A DNA stretch of 64,000 nt from a bacterium (GTDB lineage: Bacteria > Electryoneota > Electryoneia > Electryoneales > Electryoneaceae): the NCBI GenBank assembly GCA_019912845.1, contig JAIOHU010000137.1, positions 20,765 to 84,764 of the forward strand, written 5' to 3'. A program made the position numbers and the translations under genes. This document shows, one piece after another, positions 2,580 to 36,894 of the stretch; the stretch's first letter is position 1; each line of letters opens with the position of its first letter. The notes under the pieces are model-generated. The model saw nothing but the letters and a program-made list of their open reading frames with translations. It made no database searches and was not told the origin of the DNA.

Positions 2580-3920
2580 ATGAACAGTTTTAATGATACA
2601 ATTGCAGCTATTGCAACCCCTGATGGCACAGGAGCCTTGGGGGTTGTCCGTTTGACCGGAGCTCAATCCCTGAACATTGCATCGCAAATGGTAGCTCCTT
2701 CCGGAAAAATGCTTCCTATTAAACCACAATTTGCAAGTTTGTTCGGAATCATTGATGGAGATGGCGACCTCATTGACCAAGCGGTTGTTTTATATTGGAA
2801 GTCTCCCAGATCGTTTACCGGCGAGGATATGGTCGAGTTTTCATGTCACGGGGGAAGAGAGGTGCTTCGTGCAGTCTATACTAGACTTCTCGAGTTAGGT
2901 GCAAGAGCTGCAGAAGCTGGCGAATTTACCCGGCGAGCTTTCCTTAATGGTAAAATGAGCCTCGATCAGACTGAAGCGGTAGCAGCATTAATAGAATCTC
3001 GAACAAGATCGGCTGTTAAGGTCTCGGCACGGATACTTGATGGCGGTTTACGCAGTAAAATCGAAGCGATACGTCAAGAGTTGATTGATATAATCTCACG
3101 TATTGAATTAGCACTTGATTTTGTTGAAGAAGAGTTGGACCATGAGTTTGCAAAGGTGACCTTACCTGGATTAGAGGAGCTCAATAAAACAGTCGATGAA
3201 TACATTCGGCAGTACGAGTCTGGAAAATTTCTCCGAAATGGTGCGAATGTGGTTATAGCTGGTCCTCCGAATGCTGGAAAGTCCACCCTGATGAATACGC
3301 TTGCTGGTTTTGAACGTGCGATTGTCAGTGATACACCTGGTACAACACGCGATTTTATTGATGTAACCCTGGACTGGAATGGAATTCCAATACGTCTATA
3401 TGATACCGCTGGTTTACGTGAGGCGATTGATGAAATTGAAAAAGTAGGCACTCTTAAAACTCGACAATTATTTGAGCACGCTGATGTTGTTGTCTGGTTG
3501 ATGTCACCACCAGGATTTGAAAAGCCTGACCACGAATTAGGAAAATTCAACAATTTGATAACTGTAGCAAATAAGAGCGACCTTTTCGAGGACATACTAA
3601 TAGACCCTGTTGCTGACCTTACTATCAGCGCTAAATATCATGATGGCGTGGAGGAGTTGCAGAATCTTGTAACACGTTTTTTATTAAAAGATTACGATCC
3701 TGGTGATCTCCTTGTTCTGGAACAACGGCAAGCCTCTCTACTACAACAGGCTAGTGATTTGATTCGCTCTGGTTCAATCAACCTCGAGACGAACCTGGGC
3801 TTGGAACTTGTTGTTACGGATTTACGTTCAGCGTTAAATTTAATCGGCGAAATCACAGGAGCTGTAAGCAGTCAGGATATTTTACACGCTATTTTCAGCC
3901 GTTTCTGTATCGGAAAATAA
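2580..3920 (+). CDS. mnmE: tRNA modification GTPase MnmE
   Basis: DTIAAIATP, GPPNAGKS, PGTTRD, DTAG, C-terminal FCIGK. Confidence 0.98.
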   Translation: MNSFNDTIAAIATPDGTGALGVVRLTGAQSLNIASQMVAPSGKMLPIKPQFASLFGIIDGDGDLIDQAVVLYWKSPRSFTGEDMVEFSCHGGREVLRAVYTRLLELGARAAEAGEFTRRAFLNGKMSLDQTEAVAALIESRTRSAVKVSARILDGGLRSKIEAIRQELIDIISRIELALDFVEEELDHEFAKVTLPGLEELNKTVDEYIRQYESGKFLRNGANVVIAGPPNAGKSTLMNTLAGFERAIVSDTPGTTRDFIDVTLDWNGIPIRLYDTAGLREAIDEIEKVGTLKTRQLFEHADVVVWLMSPPGFEKPDHELGKFNNLITVANKSDLFEDILIDPVADLTISAKYHDGVEELQNLVTRFLLKDYDPGDLLVLEQRQASLLQQASDLIRSGSINLETNLGLELVVTDLRSALNLIGEITGAVSSQDILHAIFSRFCIGK

Positions 3921-6824: not shown

Positions 6825-7670
6825 CTATCCCGTACTTGCAATTCGTCTCTTTGCCCATGTTTCCAAGGTAGGGGAAAAGATATATCGATTGCCACTCATT
6901 TGCTCTACTTTTGATGAAAACAAACCGAACGACCTCTTTGTATATTCGACCCATTTACCTTTCTTTCCGACACCGTATGCATCCCCACTCGTAAGTGCTC
7001 CACCCATTATCTGGAATTCGAGGTTATTTTTGGCGAACAGTTTTTTCATCGTTGCAGTTTCATAATTAAAAGGGTGAAATACTGCCGGGTTCTTAAAACC
7101 TGTTTGAGTGCCAGCAATTTTCCAAAACTCATCAATCTTTCTTACAACCTTGTGGTTTCGTACCCTTAAAAAAAGCAAACCATCATCCAAAAGCAAATCT
7201 GCCGCCCGTTGTATCTCATCAAGTGGATTTTCAACCAGCATCAACACGTCCCAGTAGGTGATCAAATCAAATCTGCTACTTGTTTTTTTCTGCGTCGATA
7301 GAACCCCTGATTTGACGGAATGTCCTCTGCTGTTTGCTATCTCGACCAGTTGTTCTACCGGCTCAATTCCAAATGTTTCCCATCCACGATCTTTTGCTAT
7401 ATCTAAAAATCCTCCAACTCCGCATCCTATGTCCAACACGCTGCCTGGTTTGGATAAGTATTTCTCTGCCTTTCGCAGAACAGCTTGATATAGTTCCTGC
7501 TTACTTTGGTTGATGGCATAGGTCGGGTTTACCGATTCATAATATCCAGTTGAATCTTCGTGTGGTGGATCACGCCAGAGTAGGTTGCAAATTAAACACT
7601 TTCGATACAGAGATTCACCATGCTCTTCGATCTCATTGGATTCTACATTGCAAATAGGACAAGTTTTCAC
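6825..7670 (-). CDS. Class I SAM-dependent methyltransferase with N-terminal CxxC..CxxC
   Basis: CPIC..CLIC, VLDIGCGVGGFL, FDLITYWDVL; type common in polysaccharide loci. Confidence 0.88.
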   Translation of the reverse strand: MKTCPICNVESNEIEEHGESLYRKCLICNLLWRDPPHEDSTGYYESVNPTYAINQSKQELYQAVLRKAEKYLSKPGSVLDIGCGVGGFLDIAKDRGWETFGIEPVEQLVEIANSRGHSVKSGVLSTQKKTSSRFDLITYWDVLMLVENPLDEIQRAADLLLDDGLLFLRVRNHKVVRKIDEFWKIAGTQTGFKNPAVFHPFNYETATMKKLFAKNNLEFQIMGGALTSGDAYGVGKKGKWVEYTKRSFGLFSSKVEQMSGNRYIFSPTLETWAKRRIASTG

Positions 7671-9166
7671 AATTTACCCCCATACGAAGAGAATTCTGCT
7701 TTTTGTTGTTGTTTTATAAAACGCTCGATGGAGTTAATGTCTTGGTCGATTTCCTCTTCCTCCAGAAAACCTGGGAGCACGATGACCATAGCCGTGAGAA
7801 ACCAGAAGGGCTCCATCACACGGACGATAATAAAAGTATTCGCACCGACAGCATGTGTTAGTAACCCAAAAAAGCTGGCTATAAACCCAGCAACAATACC
7901 ATAGTATTGTGGAAACCTTTTCTCATTAATTTTTTTCAAACTTTTCCTTGCATTCACAAAAACGCTTGCGAGTACCCAGGCAAACAGGCTGAATCCCACA
8001 ACACCAGTTTCTACTAGAACACGGAAATATTGTGCATCCTTAAAGCCTGCACCAGTAACTCCATAACCAAATATTGGACGTTTTGTCCATTGCTCCAGCG
8101 TACTTGTCCACGATTGAATTCGGAGAGAGGTAGAAGGATCCAGGCTTGTATCACCCAAATCAACAACATCGGTTCTAAGCGTGTTTTCATCAGAAAAAGT
8201 ATATTCTACACGTTCGATTACCGCTTCAGGAATAAAAGCTGGTGAAGCGAGGACAGTAACAGCCAGCACTGCGATGATATATTTTCGTTTGGGTGAAAAT
8301 GCGATCATGACCAGAATAGAAGGAAAGAATGAAATCCATGAAGAGCGTGACAGGGTGTAGGCGAAAGGAAGCATCATCAACAGTAAAAAAGCCCCTAAAC
8401 CAACCATTGCATTGATTTTTTTTGTGCCTGTCATGATTCCAATGACAATGAACATGATAATTATCAGATACCCGCCAAGTGTGTTAGCTTCACCCGCTTT
8501 CCCTTCAAATGGTGCGGAGACTCGTACCCCGGAAGGAATTTGAATAATTGCATAGACTGACACGATAAATGCGGTCACAAGCAACAGTGTAATATAACGA
8601 TTAAATGTTTTTATGTTTCTAATATGCGAAGAAACCATGAAGTAGATCATGAAATATTGAAAATATTTAACGTTATACAGAATTCCAACCAGTGGTTTGA
8701 CGTCGTTGGTAAATATCCCGAGGATGGTGGAAAACAAGCTGGCGAGAATATAGGCGAAGATCGGTTTGTTCAGCGGGGTTTTGATAAAAATACCGATATC
8801 TTTATTCAGGGCTGTTTTTGCAAGCCAGGAAAGCGTAATGATGCCCAGCAAGACATCATCCACACGAATCACGACATCCCTTTGCGCTGCCATGCTGCCT
8901 TCGGCAGCACCACTACCAGATCCAAATTCAGGTGACAACAACATGGAGAGAATCAGCATGGAAAGAGCAAAGTCGGTGTTCACGAAAGCGAAGAGAAAAA
9001 TTACCACACCAGCAAGGAGGTAAATGGCGAGAGATTCGTTCGCGCCTACAAGCTGGCTGATCCCCAGGGCGGATATAATTATTACAAAAGCTGCCAGGAC
9101 GGAGAAAACTTTAGAGTTAGAGTTAAAAAACGTATCAGAGAGAAAGTTTGCCATCACCAACCTCAC
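7667..9166 (-). CDS. O-antigen ligase / Wzy-like polymerase family membrane protein
   Basis: About 12 hydrophobic segments, EANTLGGYL, TLSRSSW, R..W..RPIFGYG, LVETGVVG. Confidence 0.88.
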   Translation of the reverse strand: MRLVMANFLSDTFFNSNSKVFSVLAAFVIIISALGISQLVGANESLAIYLLAGVVIFLFAFVNTDFALSMLILSMLLSPEFGSGSGAAEGSMAAQRDVVIRVDDVLLGIITLSWLAKTALNKDIGIFIKTPLNKPIFAYILASLFSTILGIFTNDVKPLVGILYNVKYFQYFMIYFMVSSHIRNIKTFNRYITLLLVTAFIVSVYAIIQIPSGVRVSAPFEGKAGEANTLGGYLIIIMFIVIGIMTGTKKINAMVGLGAFLLLMMLPFAYTLSRSSWISFFPSILVMIAFSPKRKYIIAVLAVTVLASPAFIPEAVIERVEYTFSDENTLRTDVVDLGDTSLDPSTSLRIQSWTSTLEQWTKRPIFGYGVTGAGFKDAQYFRVLVETGVVGFSLFAWVLASVFVNARKSLKKINEKRFPQYYGIVAGFIASFFGLLTHAVGANTFIIVRVMEPFWFLTAMVIVLPGFLEEEEIDQDINSIERFIKQQQKAEFSSYGGKL

Positions 9167-11499
9167 TTCTCTTTCTTACTGAACATGGAGGTTGTCTCCT
9201 TGATTCTCTCCCCGATTTTTCGGATAAAACCGTTCTTCTCTTCCGCTTTCATTGTGGTTTGTGTTTTTTGGTCTGGTCTGCCATAATAACGCCCATAATA
9301 GTAATGTGAGCCAGCATAACCAGCGATATCCGCCTTCAGGTCGTTCAGTACCACTCCAAGAACATTTGCACCTACAGACTCTATCTGCACTTTCGCACGT
9401 TTCAGGGCTGCACGTGGAACTTTACCGGTACGATAAATCAACAGCGTTGCATCTGCACGATTTGACAGAATGGCAGCGTCTGTAACGGGTAGAATCGGAG
9501 GAACATCAAATAACACGATATCGAATTCTTGAGATGCTTCTTCCATAAATTGTTTCATTTTAGCGGATGCAAGCATTTCTGAAGGATTGGGCGGTACACC
9601 ACCGCTAGTGATGATATGCAGGTTCTCCATACCGGGGGTCATTAAAATGGATTCCATGCCCATCTCGCCCATAATAATATCGGTAACGGTACGGATCGTT
9701 TCCTGCCATTTTTTTCTACCCAGTACGATATCTGTTACCCCGGGTTCCTGTTCAAGTCCAAAAATTCGATACAGGGTGGGACGCCTCAGGTTGCATCCTA
9801 CGAGCAATGTTCTGGTACCACTCTGAGCCAAAGTGATCGCAAGATTAACAAGGGTGGTTGATTTACCTTCCTGCAAAGAAGCTGAAGTAGCTACCAAGGT
9901 TCGGATTTGGCGTGAAATAGACCTGAATTGAAGATTTGTTCGCAATGAACGGTATGCCTCTGCCACAGGGTCTTTGGGTGCAAAATGGGTAACCAGGCGT
10001 GCTGATGAAGCCAGGTTGGGATTGTTCTCCAGCATCGGATTCTGTTCGACCAATCGATCAGAAACCGCTTCAATGTCAATGTGGGGGATAACCCCCATAA
10101 CGGGTACCTGTAAATACTCCTCAACATCCTCAATTGTCCCGATAGATGTATCAAAAGTTTCGAAAAGAAAGGCAAGGACAAGCCCCAGCATCAATCCGAT
10201 GACGATACCAACGCTTATGGTTCGGAACATATTGATATTAATAGGAGAAGAGTTCAACATCGCAGGACGAACAACCATCACCTCATCTGCTTGATCTGCT
10301 TCACGTATCAACGCTTCCTGATGTTTCTCGGTAAGGAAAGCATATTGATTTTCGCGTAAACTTACTTCTCTAAGCAGTTGTGAATATAGGCGTTGCGTAC
10401 GTGGAACACTATCCAAAATCGCACTGATATTATTGATATATGCTGAAAGCGAATCCTTCTTTTGTTCCATCAGCGACAAATTGCCGCTGACTTCAGAGAC
10501 CAATTCGCGGATCAAATCCTTAATTTGAGACTCAAGATCTACGATCTTGGGATAAGTGGGGCGGTAATCTTTCAGTAATTCGCTTTTCTGAACCTCTAAT
10601 GAAACCAATCGTTCATTTAACAAACCAAGTGGACCGGAACCTTCTTCTGAGCTGATCCAATCAATGTCATATTCTTGTGAAAGCTCTTCTTCACCCGAAT
10701 AACTTATCGACCCATCCGCAAGGATAGTTGGATTTCTCAGCCCGCTCCCATTTGTTTTTGGCTGAATACGTTCCTGTAGTTGATCGCGCTGGAGCCGAAG
10801 TTCTTTTATACGTTCAGCTAAATTTCTCTTTTGTTGTTCAATGTTTATCAACTCTTCGATGCGAATTTTGATGTGATCATCAAGAACCGGGTAAGGGTTT
10901 TGCTCACGATAATTCTGCATCTGCTCTTCGGCGGCATTCAATGCTGCCTTGGAAAAGCGTAACTGCTCCTCAATAAATTCCCTGGTTTCACGATCCTGTC
11001 GCGTTCTCTGTTCGAGGTGTTCCTCAGAAAAAACTTCGGCAAGGTTCTGGGAGATTTCCCGTGCTTCATAGGGATCATCTGAGGTGACATATATATCTAT
11101 GATATTGGTTCTACCATTTCGTTCGGTAGAAACCTTGGAAATCATATTATTGATCAGGGCGGATAGCTTGGTATCCTGACGAATTTCTCGTGCTGACATA
11201 GCGTTGTCGATCAAACCCATCCGTTTGGCAACTTTTTCCATCACAGGAAAGCTTTGTATCAATTCCTGGGCGGTGGCAATGTTGTCCCAACGTGTATAGG
11301 TAAGCTTTTGCAGCAGCAAGCCTGCGACGGTATTCGTTTCTTCAATCTTTACAGAAGAATAAGTCTGATAGAGAGGGAGTCGCGAGCGACCGAAAAAATA
11401 GCTGAATACAGCCACCAGAAGCGTAGCAAATAACACTACTTTCCAGCGTCTGCGGAAAATTCGTTGATAATCACGTAAATTCAGGTCGTATTGCGCCAT
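9163..11499 (-). CDS. wzc: Polysaccharide co-polymerase / BY-kinase (Wzc-like)
   Basis: Wzz-like N-terminus with 2 TMs, coiled coil, AEAYRSLRTNL, Walker A QEGKST, FDVPP, C-terminal Tyr cluster YAGSHYYYGRYY. Confidence 0.92.
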   Translation of the reverse strand: MAQYDLNLRDYQRIFRRRWKVVLFATLLVAVFSYFFGRSRLPLYQTYSSVKIEETNTVAGLLLQKLTYTRWDNIATAQELIQSFPVMEKVAKRMGLIDNAMSAREIRQDTKLSALINNMISKVSTERNGRTNIIDIYVTSDDPYEAREISQNLAEVFSEEHLEQRTRQDRETREFIEEQLRFSKAALNAAEEQMQNYREQNPYPVLDDHIKIRIEELINIEQQKRNLAERIKELRLQRDQLQERIQPKTNGSGLRNPTILADGSISYSGEEELSQEYDIDWISSEEGSGPLGLLNERLVSLEVQKSELLKDYRPTYPKIVDLESQIKDLIRELVSEVSGNLSLMEQKKDSLSAYINNISAILDSVPRTQRLYSQLLREVSLRENQYAFLTEKHQEALIREADQADEVMVVRPAMLNSSPININMFRTISVGIVIGLMLGLVLAFLFETFDTSIGTIEDVEEYLQVPVMGVIPHIDIEAVSDRLVEQNPMLENNPNLASSARLVTHFAPKDPVAEAYRSLRTNLQFRSISRQIRTLVATSASLQEGKSTTLVNLAITLAQSGTRTLLVGCNLRRPTLYRIFGLEQEPGVTDIVLGRKKWQETIRTVTDIIMGEMGMESILMTPGMENLHIITSGGVPPNPSEMLASAKMKQFMEEASQEFDIVLFDVPPILPVTDAAILSNRADATLLIYRTGKVPRAALKRAKVQIESVGANVLGVVLNDLKADIAGYAGSHYYYGRYYGRPDQKTQTTMKAEEKNGFIRKIGERIKETTSMFSKKEK

Positions 11500-11521
11500 G
11501 AACCCTGTTCCACAATTGCTT

Positions 11522-12226
11522 TTATATCACAACAAGTAAGATTACAATTTGCAGACCGATTGAAACAGCCTGTAGATATCTATTAACTGTCACAATCCAT
11601 TTTTCCTCTTTAACCGGAACAAAGACTCTGTCACCAGGCTGTAACAGGATGTTTTGTGACGTATCGCCAAATTCGAAAAATGCGTTAAGATCAATAAGAA
11701 TAAGGTCTCCATTTGATCTTAAAATAGTGATCTGTTCAAGATTTGCACCGGGTTGGACTCCACCATACCTCGCAATAAAATTGGCAAGCCGCATCCCCGG
11801 AGGTAAACTGTATTCACCCTGGGAAATAACAGATCCGAGAAGAGATACTTTCTGGCCTAGAAATTCCAGAACTTCAATTCGTAATACTGGATTTACCACA
11901 TACTTCTGCATTTTATTTCGCAACAATCCCTCCGCCTGTTTCAGCGTGAGCCCGGTAACTGCAACCTCGCCAACCAACGGAAAATAAATTGTGCCATCAT
12001 TCTGGATTACCAGGTCAACCTTTTTCCCCTCGTCATCAAGGCTACGTTGACCAAAGTAGGTTATTCGGAGACGATCCCCCACCCCCAGCAGATATCCTTC
12101 AGGAACCTTCATCGCTGGTGCGCTCTCTTCAACAGGGTTCATCTGTGCGAAAGAATTCGTATAAATTCCCGCAGTAATGCATAAGATTAATATTAGTATC
12201 TGCCGTATCAACGTATTATCCTTCAC
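11522..12226 (-). CDS. wza: Polysaccharide export protein (Poly_export + SLBB, Wza-like)
   Basis: Signal peptide, YLLGVGDRL, DGTIYFPLVGEV, GLTL, LQPGDRVFVP. Confidence 0.88.
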   Translation of the reverse strand: MKDNTLIRQILILILCITAGIYTNSFAQMNPVEESAPAMKVPEGYLLGVGDRLRITYFGQRSLDDEGKKVDLVIQNDGTIYFPLVGEVAVTGLTLKQAEGLLRNKMQKYVVNPVLRIEVLEFLGQKVSLLGSVISQGEYSLPPGMRLANFIARYGGVQPGANLEQITILRSNGDLILIDLNAFFEFGDTSQNILLQPGDRVFVPVKEEKWIVTVNRYLQAVSIGLQIVILLVVI

Positions 12227-12590
12227 TCGAAATCATACGCGCAAGAACGCTTGTTTCAAGATAATCAAGATCAATTGGCTTTACGACAAAATCGGACGCC
12301 CCCATACTCGGAGCTTCAATGCCGATATTTCTGTCATGAACGCCAGTCACCATGATAATACCAATATCCGCATTCAGTTTTTTTATTTTCTTGAGCAAAT
12401 CCAGACCATTTGTTTCTGGGATCAAGATGTCCAGGAGAATTATGGTGGGAAAATTCTGAATAATCTTCTGCATCGCACGTTCAGGGGAAGTGGCATAATC
12501 GGCAGCATACCCTTTAGAGAGGAAGAAGTCGACAAGAATTTTACATACTTCGACTTCATCATCGATAACCAGGATGCTATTTTTTATCAT
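12216..12590 (-). CDS. Single-domain response regulator (receiver only)
   Basis: ILVIDDE, LLDILIP..NG, MVTG, DFVVKP; ATG at 12590 follows GGAG. Confidence 0.9.
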   Translation of the reverse strand: MIKNSILVIDDEVEVCKILVDFFLSKGYAADYATSPERAMQKIIQNFPTIILLDILIPETNGLDLLKKIKKLNADIGIIMVTGVHDRNIGIEAPSMGASDFVVKPIDLDYLETSVLARMISSEG

Positions 12591-12626
12591 CCGATACTCC
12601 TGCCCCAAAATACCAACTTTGGATAT

Positions 12627-13541
12627 TCAGTTTGAAAGTGAACCTGTTGATTTGTAAACAGTCCTTGCGATGCTGGCGGCCGTATCAATATCTGCCTCCA
12701 TTTGCACAGGAACGCGTTGCAGTAGCTCTGAGAGCATTTGAAGAGTTGATGCGGCTATGTTATCAAAATAAGTCAGTGACAGCAATTTCATAATCAATTT
12801 TGCCTGTCGATTGTCTGTCATATCAATGGAATCATCCAGCAGGATAATTCGTTTCAGTGTTGCAGATTGTGACCAGGGAACATGATCTGGAGACAATCTT
12901 CTTTTCCCACTTGGCTCCAACTGATTCGCCTGCCATTGCGGAAAGCGAGTCCATACGTCTTGAAATGCGCGTGGACCATCCCCCATTCCATAAATAATGT
13001 GTGAATCGCCATCTCTGCTGAGGAAGACCATATCATCTGCGATCAGTTTTCCACCTTCTGCTACTAACTGAAGTGCGCAGGATGTTTTTCCCGACCCCGT
13101 TTCACCGGCGAACATAATGCCCATACCGTTCATCTCAACAGCGCTGGCATGGATTCCACGCATGCCTCTCGCAGCAAATGGGGGCAACAGTGCGGGCAGG
13201 ATAATTTGGTCCATAATGTCGGTTGCCCGGTTCCACGCCCACTGGGGCAAAAAAATACTCCCTGTTCCCGCTCTTGGATGAACTTCGATGAAGGTTCCCA
13301 TTTGTGGGTGAGTCCAAACCAGCCGCGTCTTATCACCGTACGCCCTGGTGTTTCCTCTTTGCAGACTGGTTTCTGTGTCGGGAGGAACCACCTTCAGTAC
13401 CCCCACCCCAACATTAAAATGAATGTCAGGGTCAGTCTGGTTTTCACTGGCAATCGGAAATCCTGCCGGAAAGTTTATATTTGGAACCCCGGTTTCAATG
13501 GTAAATCCGACTCGTATATCACCAAACTTTCTAACGATCAA
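12627..13541 (-). CDS. HPr kinase-like P-loop kinase (putative peptide Ser/Thr kinase)
   Basis: IHASAV, Walker A GETGSGKT, IADD motif; lacks a canonical HprK N-domain; directly after PqqD gene. Confidence 0.85.
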   Translation of the reverse strand: MIVRKFGDIRVGFTIETGVPNINFPAGFPIASENQTDPDIHFNVGVGVLKVVPPDTETSLQRGNTRAYGDKTRLVWTHPQMGTFIEVHPRAGTGSIFLPQWAWNRATDIMDQIILPALLPPFAARGMRGIHASAVEMNGMGIMFAGETGSGKTSCALQLVAEGGKLIADDMVFLSRDGDSHIIYGMGDGPRAFQDVWTRFPQWQANQLEPSGKRRLSPDHVPWSQSATLKRIILLDDSIDMTDNRQAKLIMKLLSLTYFDNIAASTLQMLSELLQRVPVQMEADIDTAASIARTVYKSTGSLSN

Positions 13542-13544
13542 CGT

Positions 13545-13814
13545 CTATGCCTTTGTAAATCCTGATTCTCTTAGCTTGACAAGAAACTTTTCTACCAGCG
13601 GTTCAATCTCTGTCCGCGATGGAGCATTCTTCATTCTAGTCAATTCTACTTCTATTTCATCCACATTCTGTGCATTGGAAAGCGCACGCCAGACCGTCGC
13701 ACCGGTATGGTTCAATACTAGATATTCACCATTCTCTTTTAGAAGTAGTAAGCCTTCATCCACGTCCTGCTCAACAACACCATCTACCGGACGCGGGAGA
13801 TCACTATCCCACAT
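13545..13814 (-). CDS. PqqD family RiPP recognition element (stand-alone RRE)
   Basis: 89 aa, YLVLNHTGATVWRAL, VEKFLVKLRESGF. Confidence 0.92.
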   Translation of the reverse strand: MWDSDLPRPVDGVVEQDVDEGLLLLKENGEYLVLNHTGATVWRALSNAQNVDEIEVELTRMKNAPSRTEIEPLVEKFLVKLRESGFTKA

Positions 13815-14006
13815 AACATTTTCCCTAAAGCTGAATCAGATTCGTCGAATCGCTTATATTGTGAGAAATAAAATTTCTAAAAATATGAATATCTCATTCC
13901 AACATAAACAAGAAGTCCACACCGGACTGCCATTCTATCTTCTTCTTGCTGCTTTACTATAATTTAGTAAGATACTTCAACTACAATGAAATACGCAACC
14001 AGAATA

Positions 14007-15185
14007 TCATGTAAAGTAAGACTTTTTCGGTTCCTGCCTATTTATTCCAAACCCTCTGCTCAACCGATTGAGAACATATTGAACCAATGATATTTCAGGA
14101 TCATCAAACTCACGTAACAACGCTTTCGGAGGAAATAAAAGCCGTTTGAGGTAACCGAACGCTTCACTGCGGCTGTCCTGTAGGTCAATTAATCCCGTGA
14201 GACGTCGCAGGTTGCGAGGAGAGACATCTTTACCTCGCATGATTAACGAGGGAGGTCTACGGTTTAATGTTCTTTGTATTTCGACTATTGACGTATCAAC
14301 CGCTAAATTCTTCGGTCTAAATCTGAATATCTTTTGTGTCAGTGCGATGCTGGTGTTGACCGCTTTTGAAATTCTCCAGTCTTTTGTTCGTTTTCTGAAT
14401 AACTCCTCGTCCAGTTCAATCTCGTTTGAGTTCAACAAGCAATAAATATCATAGAACCAGGTTATCTTAAAGTAAGCATGGCGTACACTGTGAAGTGCAA
14501 GTATGGCAAGGTGATCTTCGACCGATGGCGCAGAGACAGCGAGATTTTTATCAATGGATAAATATCGCTTACATTTTAACAAATCTGAAGAAGGAATCCA
14601 GAAAGGCTCAGTGCGATCAACTACTGCCCGATGTAAATCCAGGGTAATTGGAATTTCTGGATGGCGTAACACAAGAGCAAAACCGTATTGTTCAGCAATT
14701 TTCTTTTCTCGTTTCCAGTGGACACTTTTCTGAAGCGTCCAGCCATTGTCGCAAAAAACTTCAACAACATCATCAAACTGATCAATCTGAACCAAAATAT
14801 CCAAGTCACCTGGATGACGATTTTGAGGATTTGGATGGTAGAATGCTGCGAGCAACCCTTTGAAATAGATGTAATTATATCCTGATAGTAGTGCGATAGT
14901 GTCCTTCAAGGCTGTTTTAGCCAGACGGTTCCTGGCGATTGCCTGATGTTTTGCGATCTTTAATTTATCAATTTCTCCCTGGTTCAATAGTTCCTGCCAT
15001 CCATAAATTTCCACTACGGTTTCATACGCCCTGGCTGAAAGCTCGTTATGGTTTAAGAATGGAATCAGGTCATGCGGAATGGAGGTAATTTTTCCTGGGG
15101 GTACTTTGGTCAGCAGTTTAACAACAACATCTAAATAAAGACGAGGATCGACCATTAGATTCTGCTTTTCAGGGCTTCCATCCAA
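14007..15185 (-). CDS. Nucleotidyltransferase family protein (NTP_transf_5-like)
   Basis: FKG..Y..R..DLDILV catalytic motif, LDLH, LALHSVRH..WFYDI. Confidence 0.88.
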   Translation of the reverse strand: MDGSPEKQNLMVDPRLYLDVVVKLLTKVPPGKITSIPHDLIPFLNHNELSARAYETVVEIYGWQELLNQGEIDKLKIAKHQAIARNRLAKTALKDTIALLSGYNYIYFKGLLAAFYHPNPQNRHPGDLDILVQIDQFDDVVEVFCDNGWTLQKSVHWKREKKIAEQYGFALVLRHPEIPITLDLHRAVVDRTEPFWIPSSDLLKCKRYLSIDKNLAVSAPSVEDHLAILALHSVRHAYFKITWFYDIYCLLNSNEIELDEELFRKRTKDWRISKAVNTSIALTQKIFRFRPKNLAVDTSIVEIQRTLNRRPPSLIMRGKDVSPRNLRRLTGLIDLQDSRSEAFGYLKRLLFPPKALLREFDDPEISLVQYVLNRLSRGFGINRQEPKKSYFT

Positions 15186-15571
15186 TTTCTTATCCGCCAG
15201 AGTAATGGAATTTCCATTGGGTGAATAATTCCAGATCGTTTCACGTGTGTGATCATACCGATCAAATGTTCGCGGCTAAAGGGATGAACGATTCTCGAAT
15301 GATCACCACTTTCAAAAAGAAATTTATCACCGATTCCCACCAGTCGATGGACAACGGTGTTTTGATTTCCCGGATTTAAACGAAACACCAGCATACCGCA
15401 TTGCAGTAGCTGGTGTTCAACACTTTTCAGAGGTACTACCCGGACAAAGTCCCCGTCAACCAATGTGGGACGCATTGACCCCCCTCTCACTTGTATCCAG
15501 AAGGGTGTCTCAAGTTTTTTCAGGTGCTTCAGGCCGTTTGGCTCAGGGACCCCAAGGATCGGGTTCGTCAC
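15155..15571 (-). CDS. Soluble S24/S26 family peptidase (Ser-His type); start uncertain
   Basis: GGSMRPTL..GD, VVHRL, ESGD; no TM anchor. In-frame GTG at 15571 preferred over ATG 15652, which lies deep inside the precursor ORF. Confidence 0.82.
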   Translation of the reverse strand: MTNPILGVPEPNGLKHLKKLETPFWIQVRGGSMRPTLVDGDFVRVVPLKSVEHQLLQCGMLVFRLNPGNQNTVVHRLVGIGDKFLFESGDHSRIVHPFSREHLIGMITHVKRSGIIHPMEIPLLWRIRNWMEALKSRI

Positions 15572-15671
15572 TGAAGAGCCGTGCTTCAACTTTTCCTGTT
15601 TCAAGAATCTCGGGATCTTCCCAAACTTGTTCTTGCGAATGGTGCTCTTCATCTTTTCGTGATTCCATCAT
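15543..15671 (-). CDS. Putative RiPP precursor peptide, 42 aa (absent from ORF track)
   Basis: MMESRKDEEHHSQEQVWEDPEILETGKVEARLFSDEPDPWGP*; AGGTGG SD-like sequence upstream; W-x-x-P-x-I-x-x-x-G leader; first gene of an RRE-containing cluster. Confidence 0.8.
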   Translation of the reverse strand: MMESRKDEEHHSQEQVWEDPEILETGKVEARLFSDEPDPWGP

Positions 15672-15720
15672 CCACCTGCTTGATTAAAAGATCATTTAGC
15701 GATTAATTCCTGACGTTATA

Positions 15721-15749
15721 AAAGTGATTCAAAGAGGCTCTCCTGTCAA
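15721..15749 (-). promoter_or_regulatory. Candidate sigma70-type promoter for the precursor operon
   Basis: TTGACA-17bp-CACTTT (weak -10; TATAAC follows immediately), about 50 bp upstream of the precursor start. Confidence 0.35.
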
Positions 15750-16150
15750 GACTCCAGGGACAATGAAAAAAATCCAATTACTCATAGGAGAAAAATAAAA
15801 ATTATAGATTCAAGTCTCACGAAAGACTCTACTCACCTCAAAAATCGCTCACTCAACAATTACTCAAAGCACTACAAAGAGAGACAACTATTCAACGCCC
15901 CAAAGGGGGCTGTAAATTTTCTTCAAGAAACACTTTAACTAATTTGTTCAAAATAGAAAAGACTGTTCCTTGCCAAACGTGGGGAGAAATTCAAGATTCT
16001 CAGTGCAGAACTTCAGTATCTAGAAGTGTCTGGTTGTGCCGAACTTTACTATTTTATAACGTCTTCTGAAGACTTGGCAAACATAGGAATTCAAAGCTTA
16101 ACAAACAACTCTTCCTACCAAATCTCCAAAGTTATTTTCTTGTGATCCAT

Positions 16151-22474: not shown

Positions 22475-24046
22475 ATGGCTACAAAAAAGAAGAAAGCTCC
22501 TGTCATTGAAAACGAGCTTCTGACAGGATTCACCGATCTACTTGATGGTGTCGGTGAAGATGAAGATCTGGATACAAAAATTCTTGATCTTTTAAAAGAA
22601 CAATTCGGCGGTGATCATGGCATGCTGCTTGAGCCTGAAGTTACCACAGGCAACTTACGCGAAGTAGCAAAGTTTGGCGAAATTGAAGAAATGCTGAACC
22701 AGGATATGAGGAATTTTACTCAATTTACCATGGATCATCCTGAGGATCCAGATTTTGTCGTCGTAGCACCAGATGCAAAAAAAGTACAAAAACTCGCCGC
22801 ACGCAAAAGTGTACGAAGAGATATGACCAAGCAGGTGTTAATCTTCCCGTTGACCGCAGGTGATGAGGCGATGGGAGTCGTTTATCTTGGTTCAAAAGAT
22901 GGAAAATCGCTCAAGGTTGATGGTCTGACGCAGGAATCAGTTCTGGAGTTTGGTAAAACATTCGGAAAGATTCTTAAAATTGACCGTGCCATTCAACGTG
23001 TCGCTCTCCAAAATCAATCATTACAACGTACAGTAAGTGGTGAAGCGGTTTACCAGAACCTGGTAGGATCCAGTGAATCTGTAGAACGGATTAAACGTGC
23101 GCTGGCATTAGTTGAAGCGACTGATATCCCTGTAACCCTGGTTGGCGAAACAGGAACAGGGAAAGCAATGTTGGCACAAATATTACATAACAACAGCGGT
23201 CGTAAAAAGAAACCGTTCATCCATCTGCAAATCAATGAAATTCCTGAAAAACTGCTGGAAATCACAATTTTCGGACGTGCTTCAAGATCAAGCAACAAGG
23301 CAGTGCGCGGTGCATTACGTGATGCAAAAGGCGGAACCCTGTTTATCCAGGACGTCGATAAACTGCCACTGCGTCTACAAGCACAATTACAGCAAGCCAT
23401 CGAAAATGGTGAAGCATTCCCATTACAAGGCGATAATGAATATCCAGTAGATGTACGATTGGTCGCCTCAACCGAATCAAATCTCGCGACACTCTTTGAA
23501 GAAAATAAAATTCGTGAGGATTTGTACCAACGTCTAAGCATTTTCCCGATTCTGATACCACCATTGCGTGATCGTACCGAAGACCTGCCCGTGCTGGTGC
23601 CTCACTTTATCGACGAAGCTGCGGCAGCATTTGGAAAAGCTGTGTCTGGTGTTAACAGTGAAGTTTACGACTACCTGGGCACCTATGATTGGCCAGGAAA
23701 TATCACTGAACTGGAAAAGGAAATCCGTCAAGCGGTGTTACGTGCGCCGGATCGTGGTGGAGTGTTAACTCCAAGCTCGCTCAGTAAGCATTTGATCAGC
23801 AAACGCGAACCAGCAATTTCTCTTCCAAAAGAAGGTACCTTGAAGCAGAGAATCGCTGGAATCGAAAAACGGTTGATCATGGAAGCGTTGGAGCAATACA
23901 AACACAATCAATCCACAACGGCAGATCGTCTCGGATTAAGCAGACAGGCACTAATTAACAAACTGCACCGTTATGGTATTGAGACAGGAAGAAAATATAA
24001 GAGACGTCTTCGTGAAATTGAAGCGAAAGCTGAGATTACCGAATAA
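22475..24046 (+). CDS. Atypical NtrC/Fis-family AAA+ transcriptional regulator (GAF-like + AAA + HTH) with degenerate motifs
   Basis: GETGTGK, VDVRLVAST, IREDLYQRL, YDWPGNITEL, Fis HTH TADRLGLSRQALINKL; no GAFTGA. Confidence 0.88.
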   Translation: MATKKKKAPVIENELLTGFTDLLDGVGEDEDLDTKILDLLKEQFGGDHGMLLEPEVTTGNLREVAKFGEIEEMLNQDMRNFTQFTMDHPEDPDFVVVAPDAKKVQKLAARKSVRRDMTKQVLIFPLTAGDEAMGVVYLGSKDGKSLKVDGLTQESVLEFGKTFGKILKIDRAIQRVALQNQSLQRTVSGEAVYQNLVGSSESVERIKRALALVEATDIPVTLVGETGTGKAMLAQILHNNSGRKKKPFIHLQINEIPEKLLEITIFGRASRSSNKAVRGALRDAKGGTLFIQDVDKLPLRLQAQLQQAIENGEAFPLQGDNEYPVDVRLVASTESNLATLFEENKIREDLYQRLSIFPILIPPLRDRTEDLPVLVPHFIDEAAAAFGKAVSGVNSEVYDYLGTYDWPGNITELEKEIRQAVLRAPDRGGVLTPSSLSKHLISKREPAISLPKEGTLKQRIAGIEKRLIMEALEQYKHNQSTTADRLGLSRQALINKLHRYGIETGRKYKRRLREIEAKAEITE

Positions 24047-24077
24047 CACCGAGTCTCTAGTATCATTAGATTGAATC

Positions 24078-24107
24078 ACAAACGCCCTCATCACAGAGGG
24101 CGTTTGT
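24078..24107. terminator. Intrinsic terminator between convergent genes
   Basis: ACAAACGCCCTC-ATCACA-GAGGGCGTTTGT 12-bp perfect stem. Confidence 0.8.
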
Positions 24108-24215
24108 ATTATACTGATTCTTGGAATTATTGTCTTATGCTGAACTGCAATATGTTTGTGTTGTTCGGATTACCGCTTTCCAATCAGTCCTAAAATCAAT
24201 AATATTACTACTTTC

Positions 24216-24248
24216 CTGGATGCCAGCTAACCCCACGCTGGCATGACG
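24216..24248. repeat. REP-like palindrome, family A (CGTCAT...ATCCAG)
   Basis: Stem ATGCCAGC/GCTGGCAT; its reverse complement shares both ends with 31896-31929. Confidence 0.5.
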
Positions 24249-24284
24249 AGATCAAACAATATTTTCGAGCATCGCTCTAATTGA

Positions 24285-36616: not shown

Positions 36617-36696
36617 GGGTTACCTGACATTTTTTCAGGTTAAGAGGGATGCGTTCACTGGGAACAGGAGTAAGTTACGTGAGATTGTTTACTTCT

Positions 36697-36716
36697 GCAA
36701 CATCTACGGATGTTGC
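36697..36716. repeat. Hairpin, REP-like family B
   Basis: GCAACATC-TACG-GATGTTGC. Confidence 0.5.
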
Positions 36717-36788
36717 GAAACTTTCGGCATGGACTTGGATAAGATCAACAGCTAATAAAATCAGGATGTAAAATTGTTCATCGCTTTA

Positions 36789-36888
36789 CCACCACAGCGT
36801 GGTGGAATTTGGGTAGCCCCGCGGTGCAGCGAAGCGGAACCCGGGGAGCACCGAAGCACGCCAAATAAAAGCCTTGTATGGGCGGGAC
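36789..36888. repeat. Three-hairpin REP-like element, family C
   Basis: CCACCACAGCGTGGTGG; CCCCGCGG..GCGAAGC..CCCGGGG; AGCCTTGTATGGGCG matches the reverse complement of 50896-50910 at 13/15. Confidence 0.55.
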
Positions 36889-36894
36889 GACCTT

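What the first reader, a model, noticed from the sequence alone, without database searches (positions are those of the whole stretch)
6825..15671. Candidate new RiPP-like system: precursor, RRE, kinase, nucleotidyltransferase and S26 peptidase joined to Wza/Wzc/ligase export genes, with no lasso cyclase
Seen: ten co-oriented genes (precursor, S24/S26 peptidase, NTP_transf_5, PqqD, HprK-like kinase, receiver, Wza, Wzc, O-antigen ligase/Wzy, methyltransferase). All junctions are overlaps or gaps of 36 bp or less, except one 192-bp gap. Established: PqqD/RRE domains bind RiPP leaders, and paeninodin/pseudomycoidin-type lasso clusters encode HprK-like kinases that phosphorylate a precursor Ser, often with a nucleotidyltransferase gene. 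This cluster lacks the asparagine-synthetase-like cyclase, transglutaminase-like B2 protease, radical SAM enzyme and ABC exporter. It also has no glycosyltransferase, flippase or priming transferase. Inference: a short linear peptide is phosphorylated, then nucleotidylated or sugar-phosphorylated, trimmed by the S26 peptidase, and serves as acceptor/primer for a surface polysaccharide or as a signal controlling it. Similar PqqD/kinase/NTase cassettes near EPS genes occur in annotations, but I know of no characterised product.
Basis: partly seen in the sequence, partly recalled or inferred. Interest (0 to 1): 0.9.

Follow-up and report, generated by a model that had tools for sequence, protein, structure and literature searches.

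The report
Phosphopeptide pathway fused to polysaccharide export
An uncultured bacterium carries one operon that joins a small, extremely conserved peptide and the enzymes predicted to phosphorylate, decorate and trim it to three sugar-polymer export genes, which extends a peptide family described in 2026 to a new phylum and ties it closely to surface polysaccharide.

Summary
Ten co-oriented minus-strand genes at 6825-15671 have the stated domains and tight junctions. The cluster contains no cyclase, B2 protease, radical SAM enzyme, ABC exporter or glycosyltransferase.

The 42-aa precursor is a real gene. Its C-terminus (LFSDEPDPWG) is nearly invariant in 22 distinct DNA versions, while all ten third-codon positions vary.

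The system is no longer unprecedented. [quoted passage not shown]

This version differs from LPP in five ways:
- It lies in the diderm candidate phylum Electryoneota.
- It has no MsbA-like exporter.
- Its core is only about 11 residues and is invariant.
- Its RRE resembles lasso B1 proteins more than LppB.
- It forms one unit with Wza-Wzc-Wzy_C.

Among 79 genomes of the phylum, the precursor and the cassette-type NTase occur in the same 14. The Wzy_C orthologue occurs in 13 of those 14 and in no other genome. The gene order cassette-RR-Wza-Wzc-Wzy_C recurs in a second class.

No chemistry was tested, so product and role are inferred. Verdict: a new variant of a known kind, with good evidence that the peptide works with the polysaccharide machine.

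The parts
15543..15671 (-). Precursor peptide, 42 aa (MMESRKDEEHHSQEQVWEDPEILETGKVEARLFSDEPDPWGP). It has a variable acidic N-terminus, the leader motif W17xxP20xI22L23, and an invariant block L32-G41 holding the only conserved hydroxyl residue, Ser34.
   Evidence: ORF. Homologues in 13 loci from genomes and 18 from metagenomes. Alignment A6 has invariant P20, L32, F33, S34, D35, E36, P37, P39 and G41. In 22 distinct DNA versions of the 10-codon core, variable sites at codon positions 1/2/3 number 2/1/10. The gene is present without an adjacent peptidase gene in L025, L031 and L037, so its conservation is not a by-product of the overlap. An AGGTGG lies just upstream of the ATG.
15155..15571 (-). 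Soluble S24/S26 (signal-peptidase-I-like) leader peptidase of 138 aa. It has Ser32, His75 and Asp90, with His where bacterial SPase I has the catalytic Lys. The longest ORF reaches 15652.
   Evidence: Pfam and NCBIfam hits below cut-off. SpsB alignment: the GGSMRPTL motif aligns with the catalytic Ser and VVHRL with the VKR Lys. In A3, G30, S32, M33, P35, H75, R76 and D90 are invariant in 11 homologues. Start inferred. LppS catalytic residues are S29, H68 and D93 (PMC13381572). No hydrophobic stretch long enough for a membrane span is seen on reading the sequence.
14007..15185 (-). NTP_transf_5 nucleotidyltransferase-fold enzyme (LppN/PsmN-like). Probable start at ATG 15155, overlapping the peptidase stop (TAATG).
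   Evidence: PF14907, 106 bits. It is the only copy in the genome. In A4, G110, D127, D129 and D183 are invariant in 13 homologues. No relative with a solved structure was found by sequence.
13545..13814 (-). Discrete RRE (PqqD-family peptide chaperone), 89 aa.
   Evidence: PF05402, 35.5 bits. lasso_PqqD models hit below cut-off. Profile search against the PDB: TbiB1 8.5e-12, PbaB1 1.4e-7, TfuB1 5.3e-7, LppB 0.0095. Predicted complex with the precursor: weak support only.
12627..13541 (-). HprK-like serine kinase, 304 aa: an N-terminal domain of unknown family plus a P-loop kinase domain.
   Evidence: PF07475, 44 bits. HprK/P structures 2qmh and 1jb1 hit at E 8e-7 over residues 127-182. In A2, H131, G151, K152, D170 and K213 are invariant and D169 is present in at least 90% of 11 homologues. 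This matches the His-Lys-Asp-Asp motif of lasso-tailoring kinases (PMC9266682).
12216..12608 (-). Receiver-only response regulator, 130 aa. Accessory: present in the window and in 3 of 8 relatives' loci. A homologous receiver-only gene also sits before the Wza gene in the second clade.
   Evidence: PF00072, 80.9 bits. Found in L024, L025 and L028. L062:4484-4867 is 37% identical.
11522..12226 (-). Wza-type outer-membrane polysaccharide export protein (Poly_export + SLBB), 234 aa.
   Evidence: Orthologues in 8 of 8 loci. In the second clade it is fused to FG-GAP and OmpA domains.
9163..11499 (-). Wzc-type co-polymerase/tyrosine autokinase, 778 aa (Wzz, GNVR, P-loop, C-terminal Tyr cluster).
   Evidence: 60-66% identical orthologues in 8 of 8 loci. 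41-43% identical in the second clade, next to the cassette. Absent as an orthologue from the 5 family members that lack the cassette.
7667..9166 (-). Wzy_C (O-antigen ligase/polymerase-like) polytopic membrane protein, 499 aa.
   Evidence: PF04932, 48 bits. Weak NCBIfam hits to IctB, PEP_O_lig_1 and TfpM. Found in 13 of 79 genomes of the phylum at E<=1e-10, all of them precursor carriers.
6825..7670 (-). Class I SAM methyltransferase with an N-terminal Cys-pair motif, 281 aa. Accessory: present only here and in L029.
   Evidence: PF13489, 73 bits. The only tblastn hit among 8 loci is L029.
15672..16150 (-). 479-bp non-coding region between gyrB and the precursor; the presumed promoter region of the operon.
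   Evidence: Sequence. No Rfam match. The consensus promoter scan gave no more sites than shuffled sequence (17 found; mean 20.5).

Best explanation
This is an LPP-type (linear polyphosphorylated peptide) RiPP pathway that has become one genetic unit with a Wza-Wzc-Wzy_C polysaccharide apparatus.

Proposed steps, all inferred by homology and none tested here:
1. The 89-aa RRE binds the W/YxxPx[IV][LV] leader of the 42-aa precursor.
2. The HprK-like kinase phosphorylates Ser34, possibly several times. Ser34 is the only conserved hydroxyl residue.
3. The NTP_transf_5 enzyme adds a sugar or nucleotide to that phosphate.
4. The soluble Ser/His/Asp signal-peptidase-like enzyme, guided by the RRE, cuts between A30 and F33. 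This releases an invariant peptide of about 10-11 residues (LFSDEPDPWGP or one residue shorter).

There is no ABC exporter. The core is frozen across two classes, and the Wzy_C and Wzc orthologues occur only in genomes that hold the peptide. I therefore infer that the product does not act as a diffusible antibiotic. It more likely acts with the polysaccharide machine. I lean towards a cytoplasmic-face ligand or switch of Wzc/Wzy_C, working with the receiver proteins. The alternative is a phospho-sugar-bearing substrate or acceptor.
For: Gene content and catalytic residues:
- All four enzyme families of the published LPP core are present: peptidase, RRE, kinase and NTase.
- The peptidase keeps S32/H75/D90, compared with LppS S29/H68/D93.
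- The kinase keeps H131/K152/D169-D170.
- The NTase keeps G110 and D127xD129.

Precursor:
- The leader aligns with the LPP logo YxxPxVLxHQxIxFETxxS. Window W17, P20, I22, L23 and V28 correspond to LPP positions -16, -13, -11, -10 and -5. The Ser lies 17 residues after W, against 18 after Y in LppA.
- The core codons show 10 of 10 variable third positions, with variable sites at only 2 first and 1 second positions.

Link between peptide and cassette:
- In 79 genomes of the phylum, strong precursor hits (E<=1.9e-15) occur in 14.
- Cassette-type NTase hits (E<=2.4e-54; next best hit 1.8e-31) occur in the same 14.
- This includes genomes where the two are not adjacent: G018, G023, G028 and the split G002.

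Link between cassette and export genes:
- The order is the same in 8 of 8 relatives' loci and in 5 metagenome contigs (L082, L083, L086, L087 and the Wzc-truncated L089; L086 and L087 gave identical hit coordinates and may be one sequence filed twice).
- The Wzy_C orthologue is in 13 of the 14 carriers and in 0 of 65 others.
- The 5 family members without the cassette also lack the Wzc orthologue.
- In the second clade, contig G018:C64 reads MerR-ParA, peptidase, NTase, PqqD, kinase, AAA_22, RR-HD-GYP, RR, Wza fusion, Wzc, Wzy_C.

Other points:
- No ORF is left over for an exporter between gyrB and rsmG in any of these loci.
- Precedent: LppK phosphorylates core Ser3 and LppS needs LppB. PsmN-dependent hexose is added on phosphoserine. 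LPP clusters sit in capsule loci of Bacilli.
- Predicted RRE-precursor complex: score 0.56, best of 3 controls 0.01, verdict 'weak support'. The mark was reached by 58 of 80 solved complexes and 2 of 110 mismatched pairs. At 0.60 or under it was reached by only 7 of those 80 solved complexes and by both mismatches that passed. The runs agree in at least 90% of contacts, and the partner pLDDT is at least 56. RRE-leader complexes have been solved, so the pass may be from memory.
Against: - No chemistry was measured.
- The RRE profile matches LppB only at E 0.0095, but lasso TbiB1 at 8.5e-12. The system may therefore have been assembled independently of Bacillota LPP.
- The Ser lies one residue closer to the W than in LppA, and the residues before the predicted cut (A-R-L) do not match F-E-T. 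The cut site is a guess.
- In the second clade the [VI]EA stretch is replaced by [KE][IV]E.
- Three loci (L025, L031, L037/L030) have no peptidase gene next to the precursor.
- LppN gave no product in the published work, so the NTase step has support only from PsmN.
- In the second clade the precursor genes sit beside T9SS-cargo genes, not beside the cassette. This could mean a different or additional partner.
- Genomic linkage, however strong, does not show that the peptide touches the export proteins.
- Related genomes are not independent. The co-occurrence amounts to roughly three lineages plus two losses.
- No glycosyltransferase or flippase is linked, so what polymer the Wza-Wzc-Wzy_C set handles is unknown.
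Confidence: 0.6

Rival explanations
1. Primer or acceptor model. The Ser-(poly)phosphate-sugar on the 11-mer mimics an undecaprenyl-diphosphate-sugar. It serves as the primer on which a glycan is built, or as the acceptor to which the Wzy_C-family protein ligates it. Wzc/Wza then export a peptide-capped polysaccharide.
For: - Wzy_C-family proteins include ligases and O-oligosaccharyltransferases. There are weak NCBIfam hits to TfpM (1.1e-4) and PEP_O_lig_1 (9.5e-6).
- The Wzy_C orthologue is confined to peptide carriers.
- PsmN-dependent hexose on phosphoserine is published.
- There is no separate peptide exporter.
Against: - The peptide has no signal sequence, and Wzy_C-family enzymes act at the periplasmic face (my knowledge, not tested here).
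- No priming transferase, glycosyltransferase or flippase is linked.
- Nothing shows that the peptide leaves the cytoplasm.
Confidence: 0.13
2. Independent neighbours. The peptide cassette makes an LPP-like product with a role of its own, such as competition or signalling, and is released by an unlinked transporter. Wza-Wzc-Wzy_C is an ordinary polysaccharide export set that merely shares an old operon.
For: - LPP and paeninodin clusters in Bacilli also merely co-localise with capsule loci, with no shown link.
- In G002 the cluster is split, and both parts are kept.
- In the second clade the precursors lie elsewhere.
- Other kinase/NTase cassettes of this phylum do have ABC exporters (L077, L079).
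Against: - The G002 break falls inside the peptide half (precursor-peptidase-NTase | PqqD-kinase-Wza-Wzc-Wzy_C), not between the halves.
- Wzy_C and Wzc orthologues are absent wherever the cassette is absent.
- The order is kept across two classes at only 22-44% identity.
- The invariant core is unlike the variable cores of conflict-type RiPPs.
Confidence: 0.17
3. A lasso peptide whose cyclase and B2 protease lie elsewhere in the genome, with kinase and NTase as tailoring enzymes as in paeninodin and pseudomycoidin.
For: - The RRE is most like lasso B1 proteins.
- The leader motif is the lasso one.
- Four Asn-synthase homologues exist in the genome.
Against: - No Transglut_core3 (B2) match in the 92%-complete genome.
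- All four Asn-synthase homologues pass the asparagine synthase cut-off (350-446 bits against 267). None passes a lasso cyclase cut-off (171-266 bits against 525).
- A core of 10-11 residues leaves at most four residues after a ring of seven.
- A dedicated serine leader peptidase is present.
Confidence: 0.03
4. The small ORF is not a modified peptide. It is a small regulatory or adaptor protein, and the cassette acts on another substrate.
For: - The peptide was not found in a collection of 5.8 billion protein clusters, so no annotation supports it.
- In the second clade it pairs with T9SS-cargo genes.
Against: - It co-occurs perfectly with the cassette.
- It has a lasso/LPP-type RRE-binding motif at the right distance from a conserved Ser.
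- It holds the first position of the operon and overlaps the peptidase gene.
Confidence: 0.05

Closest known systems
Linear polyphosphorylated peptides (LPP), lpp cluster of Paenibacillus alginolyticus and other Bacillota (Popov et al., Nat Commun 2026, PMC13381572)
   Same: - Precursor with a [Y/W]xxPx[VI]L leader.
- Discrete RRE.
- HprK-like kinase acting on a Ser just after the cut site.
- Archaeal-type (Ser/His/Asp) signal-peptidase-like leader peptidase.
- Uncharacterised NTP transferase.
- No macrolactam cyclase.
- Neighbourhood of polysaccharide genes.
   Different: - No MsbA-like exporter.
- The core is about 11 residues and invariant, whereas LPP precursors are 35-200 aa with variable C-termini.
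- The host is a diderm FCB-group candidate phylum, although the authors call LPP restricted to Bacillota.
- The RRE is closer to lasso B1 than to LppB.
- The Ser is one residue nearer the motif, and there is no F-E-T before the cut.
- It is fused in one operon, and co-inherited, with Wza-Wzc-Wzy_C rather than merely sitting in a capsule locus.
Paeninodin/pseudomycoidin-type phosphorylated lasso peptides (PadeK, ThcoK, PsmK, PsmN)
   Same: An HprK-like kinase with the His-Lys-Asp-Asp motif, an NTP_transf_5-type enzyme, a lasso-type RRE and a lasso-type leader motif.
   Different: - No cyclase, B2 protease or ABC exporter.
- The Ser is internal, near the N-terminus of the core, not C-terminal.
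- Leader removal is by a serine peptidase.
NCBIfam 'HPr-rel-A system' (TIGR04352 HprK-related kinase A, TIGR04353 PqqD family chaperone), HprK-related kinase B (TIGR04355) and the SynChlorMet cassette (ScmC/ScmD). These are annotation-only families. That they lie near exopolysaccharide loci is my recollection and comes from no call.
   Same: Pairing of a PqqD-family protein with an HprK-related kinase.
   Different: - The window's proteins score far below the family cut-offs: 23.4 and 35.2 bits against 200; ScmC 19.7 against 125. TIGR04353 did not hit the window's PqqD at all at E<=0.01.
- No paper in the searched library names these families.
Wzx/Wzy-dependent (group 1 capsule-like) polysaccharide export: Wza, Wzc, Wzy/WaaL-family proteins
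   Same: A Wza (Poly_export + SLBB), a Wzc with a Tyr cluster, and a Wzy_C-family membrane protein, in that order.
   Different: - No flippase, priming transferase, glycosyltransferase or Wzb phosphatase is linked.
- The Wzc segment after Walker A reads VGCNLRRP in the window and in the 6 orthologues printed.
- The set occurs only together with the peptide cassette in this phylum.

Membership tests
LPP (linear polyphosphorylated peptide) RiPP clusters | Archaeal-type signal-peptidase-I-like leader peptidase with a Ser/His/Asp catalytic set | tested here: met
   S32, H75 and D90 are invariant in 11 homologues. His aligns with the catalytic Lys of SpsB. LppS has S29/H68/D93. Direct homology to LppS could not be scored, because no LppS sequence was at hand.
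LPP (linear polyphosphorylated peptide) RiPP clusters | Discrete RRE belonging to the LppB clade | tested here: inconclusive
   A discrete PqqD-family RRE is present. Its profile hits LppB (9x8z_B) only at E 0.0095, against TbiB1 at 8.5e-12. No tree was built with the paper's set, because supplements are closed.
LPP (linear polyphosphorylated peptide) RiPP clusters | HprK-like kinase and NTP transferase as core genes | tested here: met
   PF07475 and PF14907. Catalytic residues are conserved.
LPP (linear polyphosphorylated peptide) RiPP clusters | MsbA-like ABC exporter in the core cluster | tested here: not met
   No ABC domain in the ten proteins. No unassigned large ORF between gyrB and rsmG in the window or in 8 relatives' loci.
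LPP (linear polyphosphorylated peptide) RiPP clusters | Precursor leader YxxPxVLxHQxIxFET followed by xxS; variable C-terminus | tested here: inconclusive
   [W/Y]xxPx[IV][LV] and a hydrophobic residue at +11 are present. The HQ and FET residues are absent. The Ser lies at +17, not +18. The C-terminus is invariant, not variable.
LPP (linear polyphosphorylated peptide) RiPP clusters | Polyphosphorylation of the core Ser, and RRE-dependent leader cleavage | not testable with these tools
   Needs expression and mass spectrometry.
Lasso peptides | Asn-synthetase-like macrolactam cyclase (C) and transglutaminase-like B2 protease | tested here: not met
   No PF13471 match in the genome, which is 92.4% complete. 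The four PF00733 proteins pass the asparagine synthase cut-off and fail both lasso cyclase cut-offs.
NCBIfam HPr-rel-A system / HprK-related kinase B / SynChlorMet cassette | Score above the family's curated cut-off | tested here: not met
   TIGR04352 23.4 bits against 200; TIGR04355 35.2 against 200; TIGR04249 19.7 against 125; TIGR04248 16.8 against 100.
Wzx/Wzy-dependent polysaccharide assembly locus | Wza, Wzc and a Wzy/ligase-family protein together with a flippase, a priming transferase and glycosyltransferases | tested here: not met
   Only the first three are present. The ten further window ORFs scanned are housekeeping or unrelated. About 30 other window ORFs listed were not scanned.

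The most novel reading that the evidence does not exclude
The matured 11-residue peptide carries a Ser-linked (poly)phosphate-sugar. This group acts like a peptide version of undecaprenyl-diphosphate-sugar. The Wzy_C-family protein, found only in genomes that encode the peptide, builds or ligates a glycan on it, and Wzc/Wza export a ribosomal-peptide-capped polysaccharide. That would make LPP-type peptides primers or anchors of surface polymers rather than free natural products. It would also explain why such clusters sit in capsule loci in Bacilli.
Probability: 0.12. Interest if true: 0.9.

Novelty: new variant of a known kind. Interest (0 to 1): 0.62.

Why it matters
The biological role of LPP-type peptides, and of phosphorylated lasso peptides, is unknown. 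Their discoverers could only note that the clusters often lie in capsule loci of Bacilli.

Here a very distant lineage has turned that loose neighbourhood into one co-inherited operon with Wza-Wzc-Wzy_C. It has dropped the exporter and frozen the core to about 11 residues. This has three consequences:
- It gives independent, cross-phylum support for a functional tie between these peptides and surface polysaccharide.
- It contradicts the stated restriction of the family to Bacillota.
- It offers a minimal substrate: one Ser and a core short enough to synthesise. On such a substrate the unknown NTP-transferase step and the final product may be easier to find.

It also shows that gene callers miss the precursor. 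It was not found in a collection of 5.8 billion protein clusters.

Tried and rejected
Things tried that led nowhere or were set aside:
- The long precursor/peptidase overlap as a real feature, or as a frameshift fusion. Rejected: it is an artefact of ORF extension.
- A GTG start formed by the Ser-Asp codons as the universal peptidase start. Rejected: only the window and L038 (plus the metagenome versions L083 and L096) use AGT for Ser, and the rest use AGC.
- The signal-peptidase 'AxA' rule, with a cut after [VI]EA. Considered, but the second clade has [KE][IV]E there, so it is not adopted.
- Exosortase/PEP-CTERM context. No PF09721 match in the genome.
- A riboswitch or other known RNA in or before the operon. 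No Rfam match at E<=0.1.
- The sigma-70 promoter and terminator scan gave no more sites than shuffled sequence.
- Expression. Three metatranscriptome runs from one study were laid as contigs. One run gave two contigs of 153-156 nt with no differences, at 12752-12907 and 13786-13938. The other two gave none. The tool warns that this does not show transcription, so I do not count it as evidence for or against an operon transcript.
- The about 720-aa T9SS-cargo partner of the second clade's precursors. Pfam finds only the C-terminal sorting domain. The atlas's best score was 0.76, below its lead threshold. The AlphaFold model from 6 sequences had mean pLDDT 43, so no fold search was run.
- The precursor in the protein-cluster collection: no candidate. 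Only lengths of 23-74 aa were searched.
- The RRE-Finder paper and the 2025 RRE paper have no occurrence of the terms kinase, nucleotidyltransferase or polysaccharide.
- Papers with PqqD + 'HPr kinase' + exopolysaccharide: 0.
- Papers with HPr-rel-A, the TIGR numbers, PF14907 or NTP_transf_5: 2 hold a term and 1 is listed. It is about phosphonates.
- Not done: a tree joining these RREs and peptidases to the LPP set, because the paper's supplementary data are closed; Pfam scans of about 30 further window ORFs; and a survey outside this phylum for cassettes with Wzy_C, because the single genome-contig scan and the single metagenome scan were both spent on the precursor pattern LFSDEPDP, which cannot find diverged cores.

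Full report
**What is there.**
The window lies at a replication-origin region. The order is yidC, mnmE, mnmG, rsmG (plus strand), then the cluster on the minus strand, then gyrB, a DUF721 gene, dnaN and dnaA.

Between rsmG and gyrB lie ten co-oriented genes at 6825-15671. Pfam and NCBIfam give the following:
- a 42-aa ORF with no family
- an S24/S26 peptidase (hits below cut-off)
- NTP_transf_5
- PqqD
- an HprK-like kinase
- a receiver-only response regulator
- Wza
- Wzc
- a Wzy_C-family membrane protein
- a class I methyltransferase

All junctions are overlaps or gaps of 22 bp or less, except the 192-bp NTase/PqqD gap. No cyclase, B2 protease, radical SAM enzyme, ABC exporter or glycosyltransferase domain is present.

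**The precursor is a real gene.**
tblastn found it in 6 of 8 loci fetched around kinase homologues of the same family. The two misses are explained. In one genome the cluster is split. In the other a contig ends, and the gene sits on another contig.

The scan of 185,579 species genomes with the pattern LFSDEPDP gave 51 pattern matches and 13 confirmed loci. The metagenome scan gave 85 matches and 18 confirmed loci.

In the alignment of 14 sequences the N-terminus is free to vary. A [W/Y]xxPx[IV][LV] motif follows, and L32-F-S-D-E-P-x-P-x-G is invariant. In 22 distinct DNA versions of those ten codons every third position varies, but only 2 first and 1 second positions do. This is the signature of selection on the protein.

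The gene also occurs where no peptidase gene overlaps it (L025, L031, L037). There it is followed by a stem-loop. It was not found in a collection of 5.8 billion protein clusters, so gene callers miss it.

**The enzymes look active.**
- Peptidase: G30, S32, M33, P35, H75, R76 and D90 are invariant in 11 homologues. Against S. aureus SpsB, the Ser aligns with the catalytic Ser, and His75 aligns with the catalytic Lys. This makes it a Ser/His type, as in archaeal/ER-type signal peptidases. I see no membrane span in its sequence. Its true start is at or just after the precursor's end: GTG 15571 here, an ATG 1 nt after the stop in L024, and an ATG 22 nt after the stop in L026.
- Kinase: H131, K152, D169/D170 and K213 are kept. 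This matches the His-Lys-Asp-Asp motif reported for lasso-tailoring kinases (PMC9266682, passages).
- NTase: G110, D127xD129 and D183 are kept.

**What it corresponds to.**
A full-text search for HprK plus RiPP led to Popov et al., Nat Commun 2026 (PMC13381572). I read the outline, sections 6, 9, 11, 12 and 35, and passages found by term search. I could not see the supplements.

They define linear polyphosphorylated peptides (LPP). [quoted passage not shown] The precursors are 35-200 aa, with the leader logo YxxPxVLxHQxIxFETxxS and variable C-termini.

Their experimental results are:
- LppK puts up to four phosphates on core Ser3.
- LppS cuts after T-1 only when LppB is present.
- LppN gave no detectable product.

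They state that LPP clusters are embedded in capsule loci of Bacilli, that the family is restricted to Bacillota, and that its role is unknown. In pseudomycoidin, the homologous PsmN is required for hexose on the phosphoserine (PMC6993621, passages).

The window's four enzymes and its leader fit this scheme. W17, P20, I22, L23 and V28 fall on LPP positions -16, -13, -11, -10 and -5. The single conserved Ser lies 17 residues after W, against 18 after Y in LppA. By LppA spacing the cut would follow L32 (core FSDEPDPWGP, Ser2). By the Ser3 register it would follow R31 (core LFSDEPDPWGP), which is exactly where invariance begins. I cannot decide between the two.

**How it differs.**
1. Host. The named records among the 13 loci are Candidatus Electryonea clarkiae and Candidatus Tariuqbacter arcticus. 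These are two classes of the FCB-group candidate phylum Electryoneota. All records are uncultured MAGs.
2. No exporter. There is no unassigned large ORF in the window or in 8 relatives' loci.
3. Core. It is about 11 residues and invariant across both classes.
4. RRE. Its profile matches lasso TbiB1 (8.5e-12), PbaB1 (1.4e-7) and TfuB1 (5.3e-7) better than LppB (0.0095). Common descent with Bacillota LPP is therefore open.
5. Union with Wza-Wzc-Wzy_C (next section).

**Linkage evidence.**
I searched all 79 genomes held for the phylum.
- The precursor profile gave strong hits (E<=1.9e-15) in 14 genomes. One weak hit (0.0014, inside a 178-aa frame) I take for chance.
- The NTase profile gave 28 genomes at E<=1e-5. 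The top tier (E<=2.4e-54; the next best hit is 1.8e-31) is exactly the same 14.
- The Wzy_C protein gave 13 genomes at E<=1e-10. All are among the 14, and the missing one is 77% complete.
- The five members of the window's own family that lack the cassette have gyrB. They have only 27-31% identical Wzc paralogues or none. In the two looked at (G013, G004), nothing of the cluster follows gyrB.

In the second clade (G018, G023, G028) the cassette is only 22-30% identical, but it keeps the order peptidase-NTase-PqqD-kinase. On contig G018:C64 it is preceded by a MerR-ParA gene. It is followed by an AAA_22 ATPase, an RR-HD-GYP protein, a receiver-only RR, a FG-GAP/OmpA/Wza fusion, a Wzc orthologue (43% identity) and a Wzy_C orthologue (41% identity) at the contig end. 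G023:C134 has Wzc followed by Wzy_C.

In G002 (the E. clarkiae genome) the cluster is split. Precursor-peptidase-NTase is on one contig, and PqqD-kinase-Wza-Wzc-Wzy_C-MT is on another. The break falls inside the peptide half.

Related genomes are not independent. The pattern amounts to about three carrier lineages and two losses. Even so, no genome breaks it.

**Alternative partners checked.**
- The 92.4%-complete genome has no B2-type protease and no exosortase.
- Its four Asn-synthase homologues pass the asparagine synthase cut-off and fail the lasso cyclase cut-offs.
- A second PqqD gene lies next to an ATP-grasp gene on another contig, in a separate system.

**Mechanism, with status.**
- Shown by sequence: the gene set, the conserved catalytic residues, the leader motif, the invariant core with one Ser, and the absence of an exporter, cyclase and glycosyltransferases.
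- Shown by comparison: co-inheritance of peptide, cassette, Wzc and Wzy_C.
- Inferred by homology to published experiments: RRE binding, Ser phosphorylation, RRE-dependent serine-peptidase cleavage, and addition of sugar to the phosphate.
- Weakly supported by modelling: the RRE-precursor complex scored 0.56 against a best control of 0.01. The tool rates this as weak support. Similar complexes have been solved, so the result may come from memory.
- Pure inference: the product acts on or with the Wza-Wzc-Wzy_C machine.

I lean towards a cytoplasmic-face ligand or switch, for three reasons. The core is invariant. Receiver, HD-GYP and ATPase genes travel with the cassette. And the peptide has no route to the periplasm. 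The primer/acceptor idea stays open at about one in eight.

**Verdict.**
This is a new variant of a known kind. Its value is the cross-phylum evidence that ties LPP-type peptides to polysaccharide export, together with a minimal, invariant substrate.

Noticed in passing
L042:2513-2641, L043:279-413 and 3052-3180, L044:3749-3892; L090-L097: In the second clade (Tariuqbacter-like) the precursor genes are not next to the cassette. Each lies beside a member of one family of about 720-735-aa proteins with a T9SS C-terminal sorting domain. The members are 39-66% identical to each other. Pairs are tandemly duplicated in L043 and L094/L095. In L044 an acyl-CoA dehydrogenase gene lies in between. These cores end in an extra Cys (…WGPCGP, …WGCGP). 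The partner's fold is unknown (Pfam finds the CTD only; the model has pLDDT 43).
   Followed up: partly
L077:6036-7658 (G013:C2), also G010, G014, G015: The genus of the window's family that lacks the cluster has a 541-550-aa fusion of an S26-like N-terminus with NTP_transf_5. It lies near two T9SS-cargo genes, an HprK-like gene (340 aa) and an ABC exporter. This gene fusion supports the idea that peptidase and NTase work together.
   Followed up: partly
L078:538-6001 (G032:C93) and L080:7067-12478 (G035:C173): Another family of the phylum has two radical SAM genes followed by an HprK-like kinase, an S26-like peptidase and NTP_transf_5. In L078, where Pfam was run, one of the radical SAM genes carries a SPASM domain. 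This is a SynChlorMet-like variant using the same three-enzyme module.
   Followed up: partly
L079:2224-10569 (G003:C12): G003 holds a second system: a second Wza-Wzc pair, an HprK-like gene (382 aa), NTP_transf_5, an ABC exporter and a 50-aa ORF with a WEKPQLV leader motif and a Cys-rich tail (10417-10569, minus strand). This is again a kinase/NTase peptide system beside Wza-Wzc.
   Followed up: partly
G000:C196 (L002:1336-2654): The window's genome has a second PqqD-family gene. It scores 35.1 bits against TIGR04353, whose cut-off is 35. It overlaps an ATP-grasp gene, so it is probably another RiPP-like system.
   Followed up: partly
window 9163-11499 (Wzc), about residues 567-574: After Walker A, where I recall BY-kinases having a DxD-type Walker A' motif (recollection, from no call), the window and the 6 orthologues printed read VGCNLRRP. 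This may mean altered kinase chemistry.
   Followed up: no
L025, L031, L037, just after the precursor stop: In loci without a peptidase gene the precursor is followed by a GC-rich stem-loop, with a T run in L031 and L037. This looks like the attenuating terminator often found after RiPP precursor genes.
   Followed up: no
window 6825-7670: The methyltransferase has two N-terminal CxxC-like pairs (CPICN…CLICN). Among relatives it occurs only in L029 (E. clarkiae), so it is a lineage-specific addition.
   Followed up: no
window 22475-26249 and 35061-38604: Beyond dnaA lie a sigma-54 activator and an OPT oligopeptide transporter. Further on are two T9SS-cargo genes, one of them a subtilase. None is conserved next to the cluster in relatives.
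   Followed up: no
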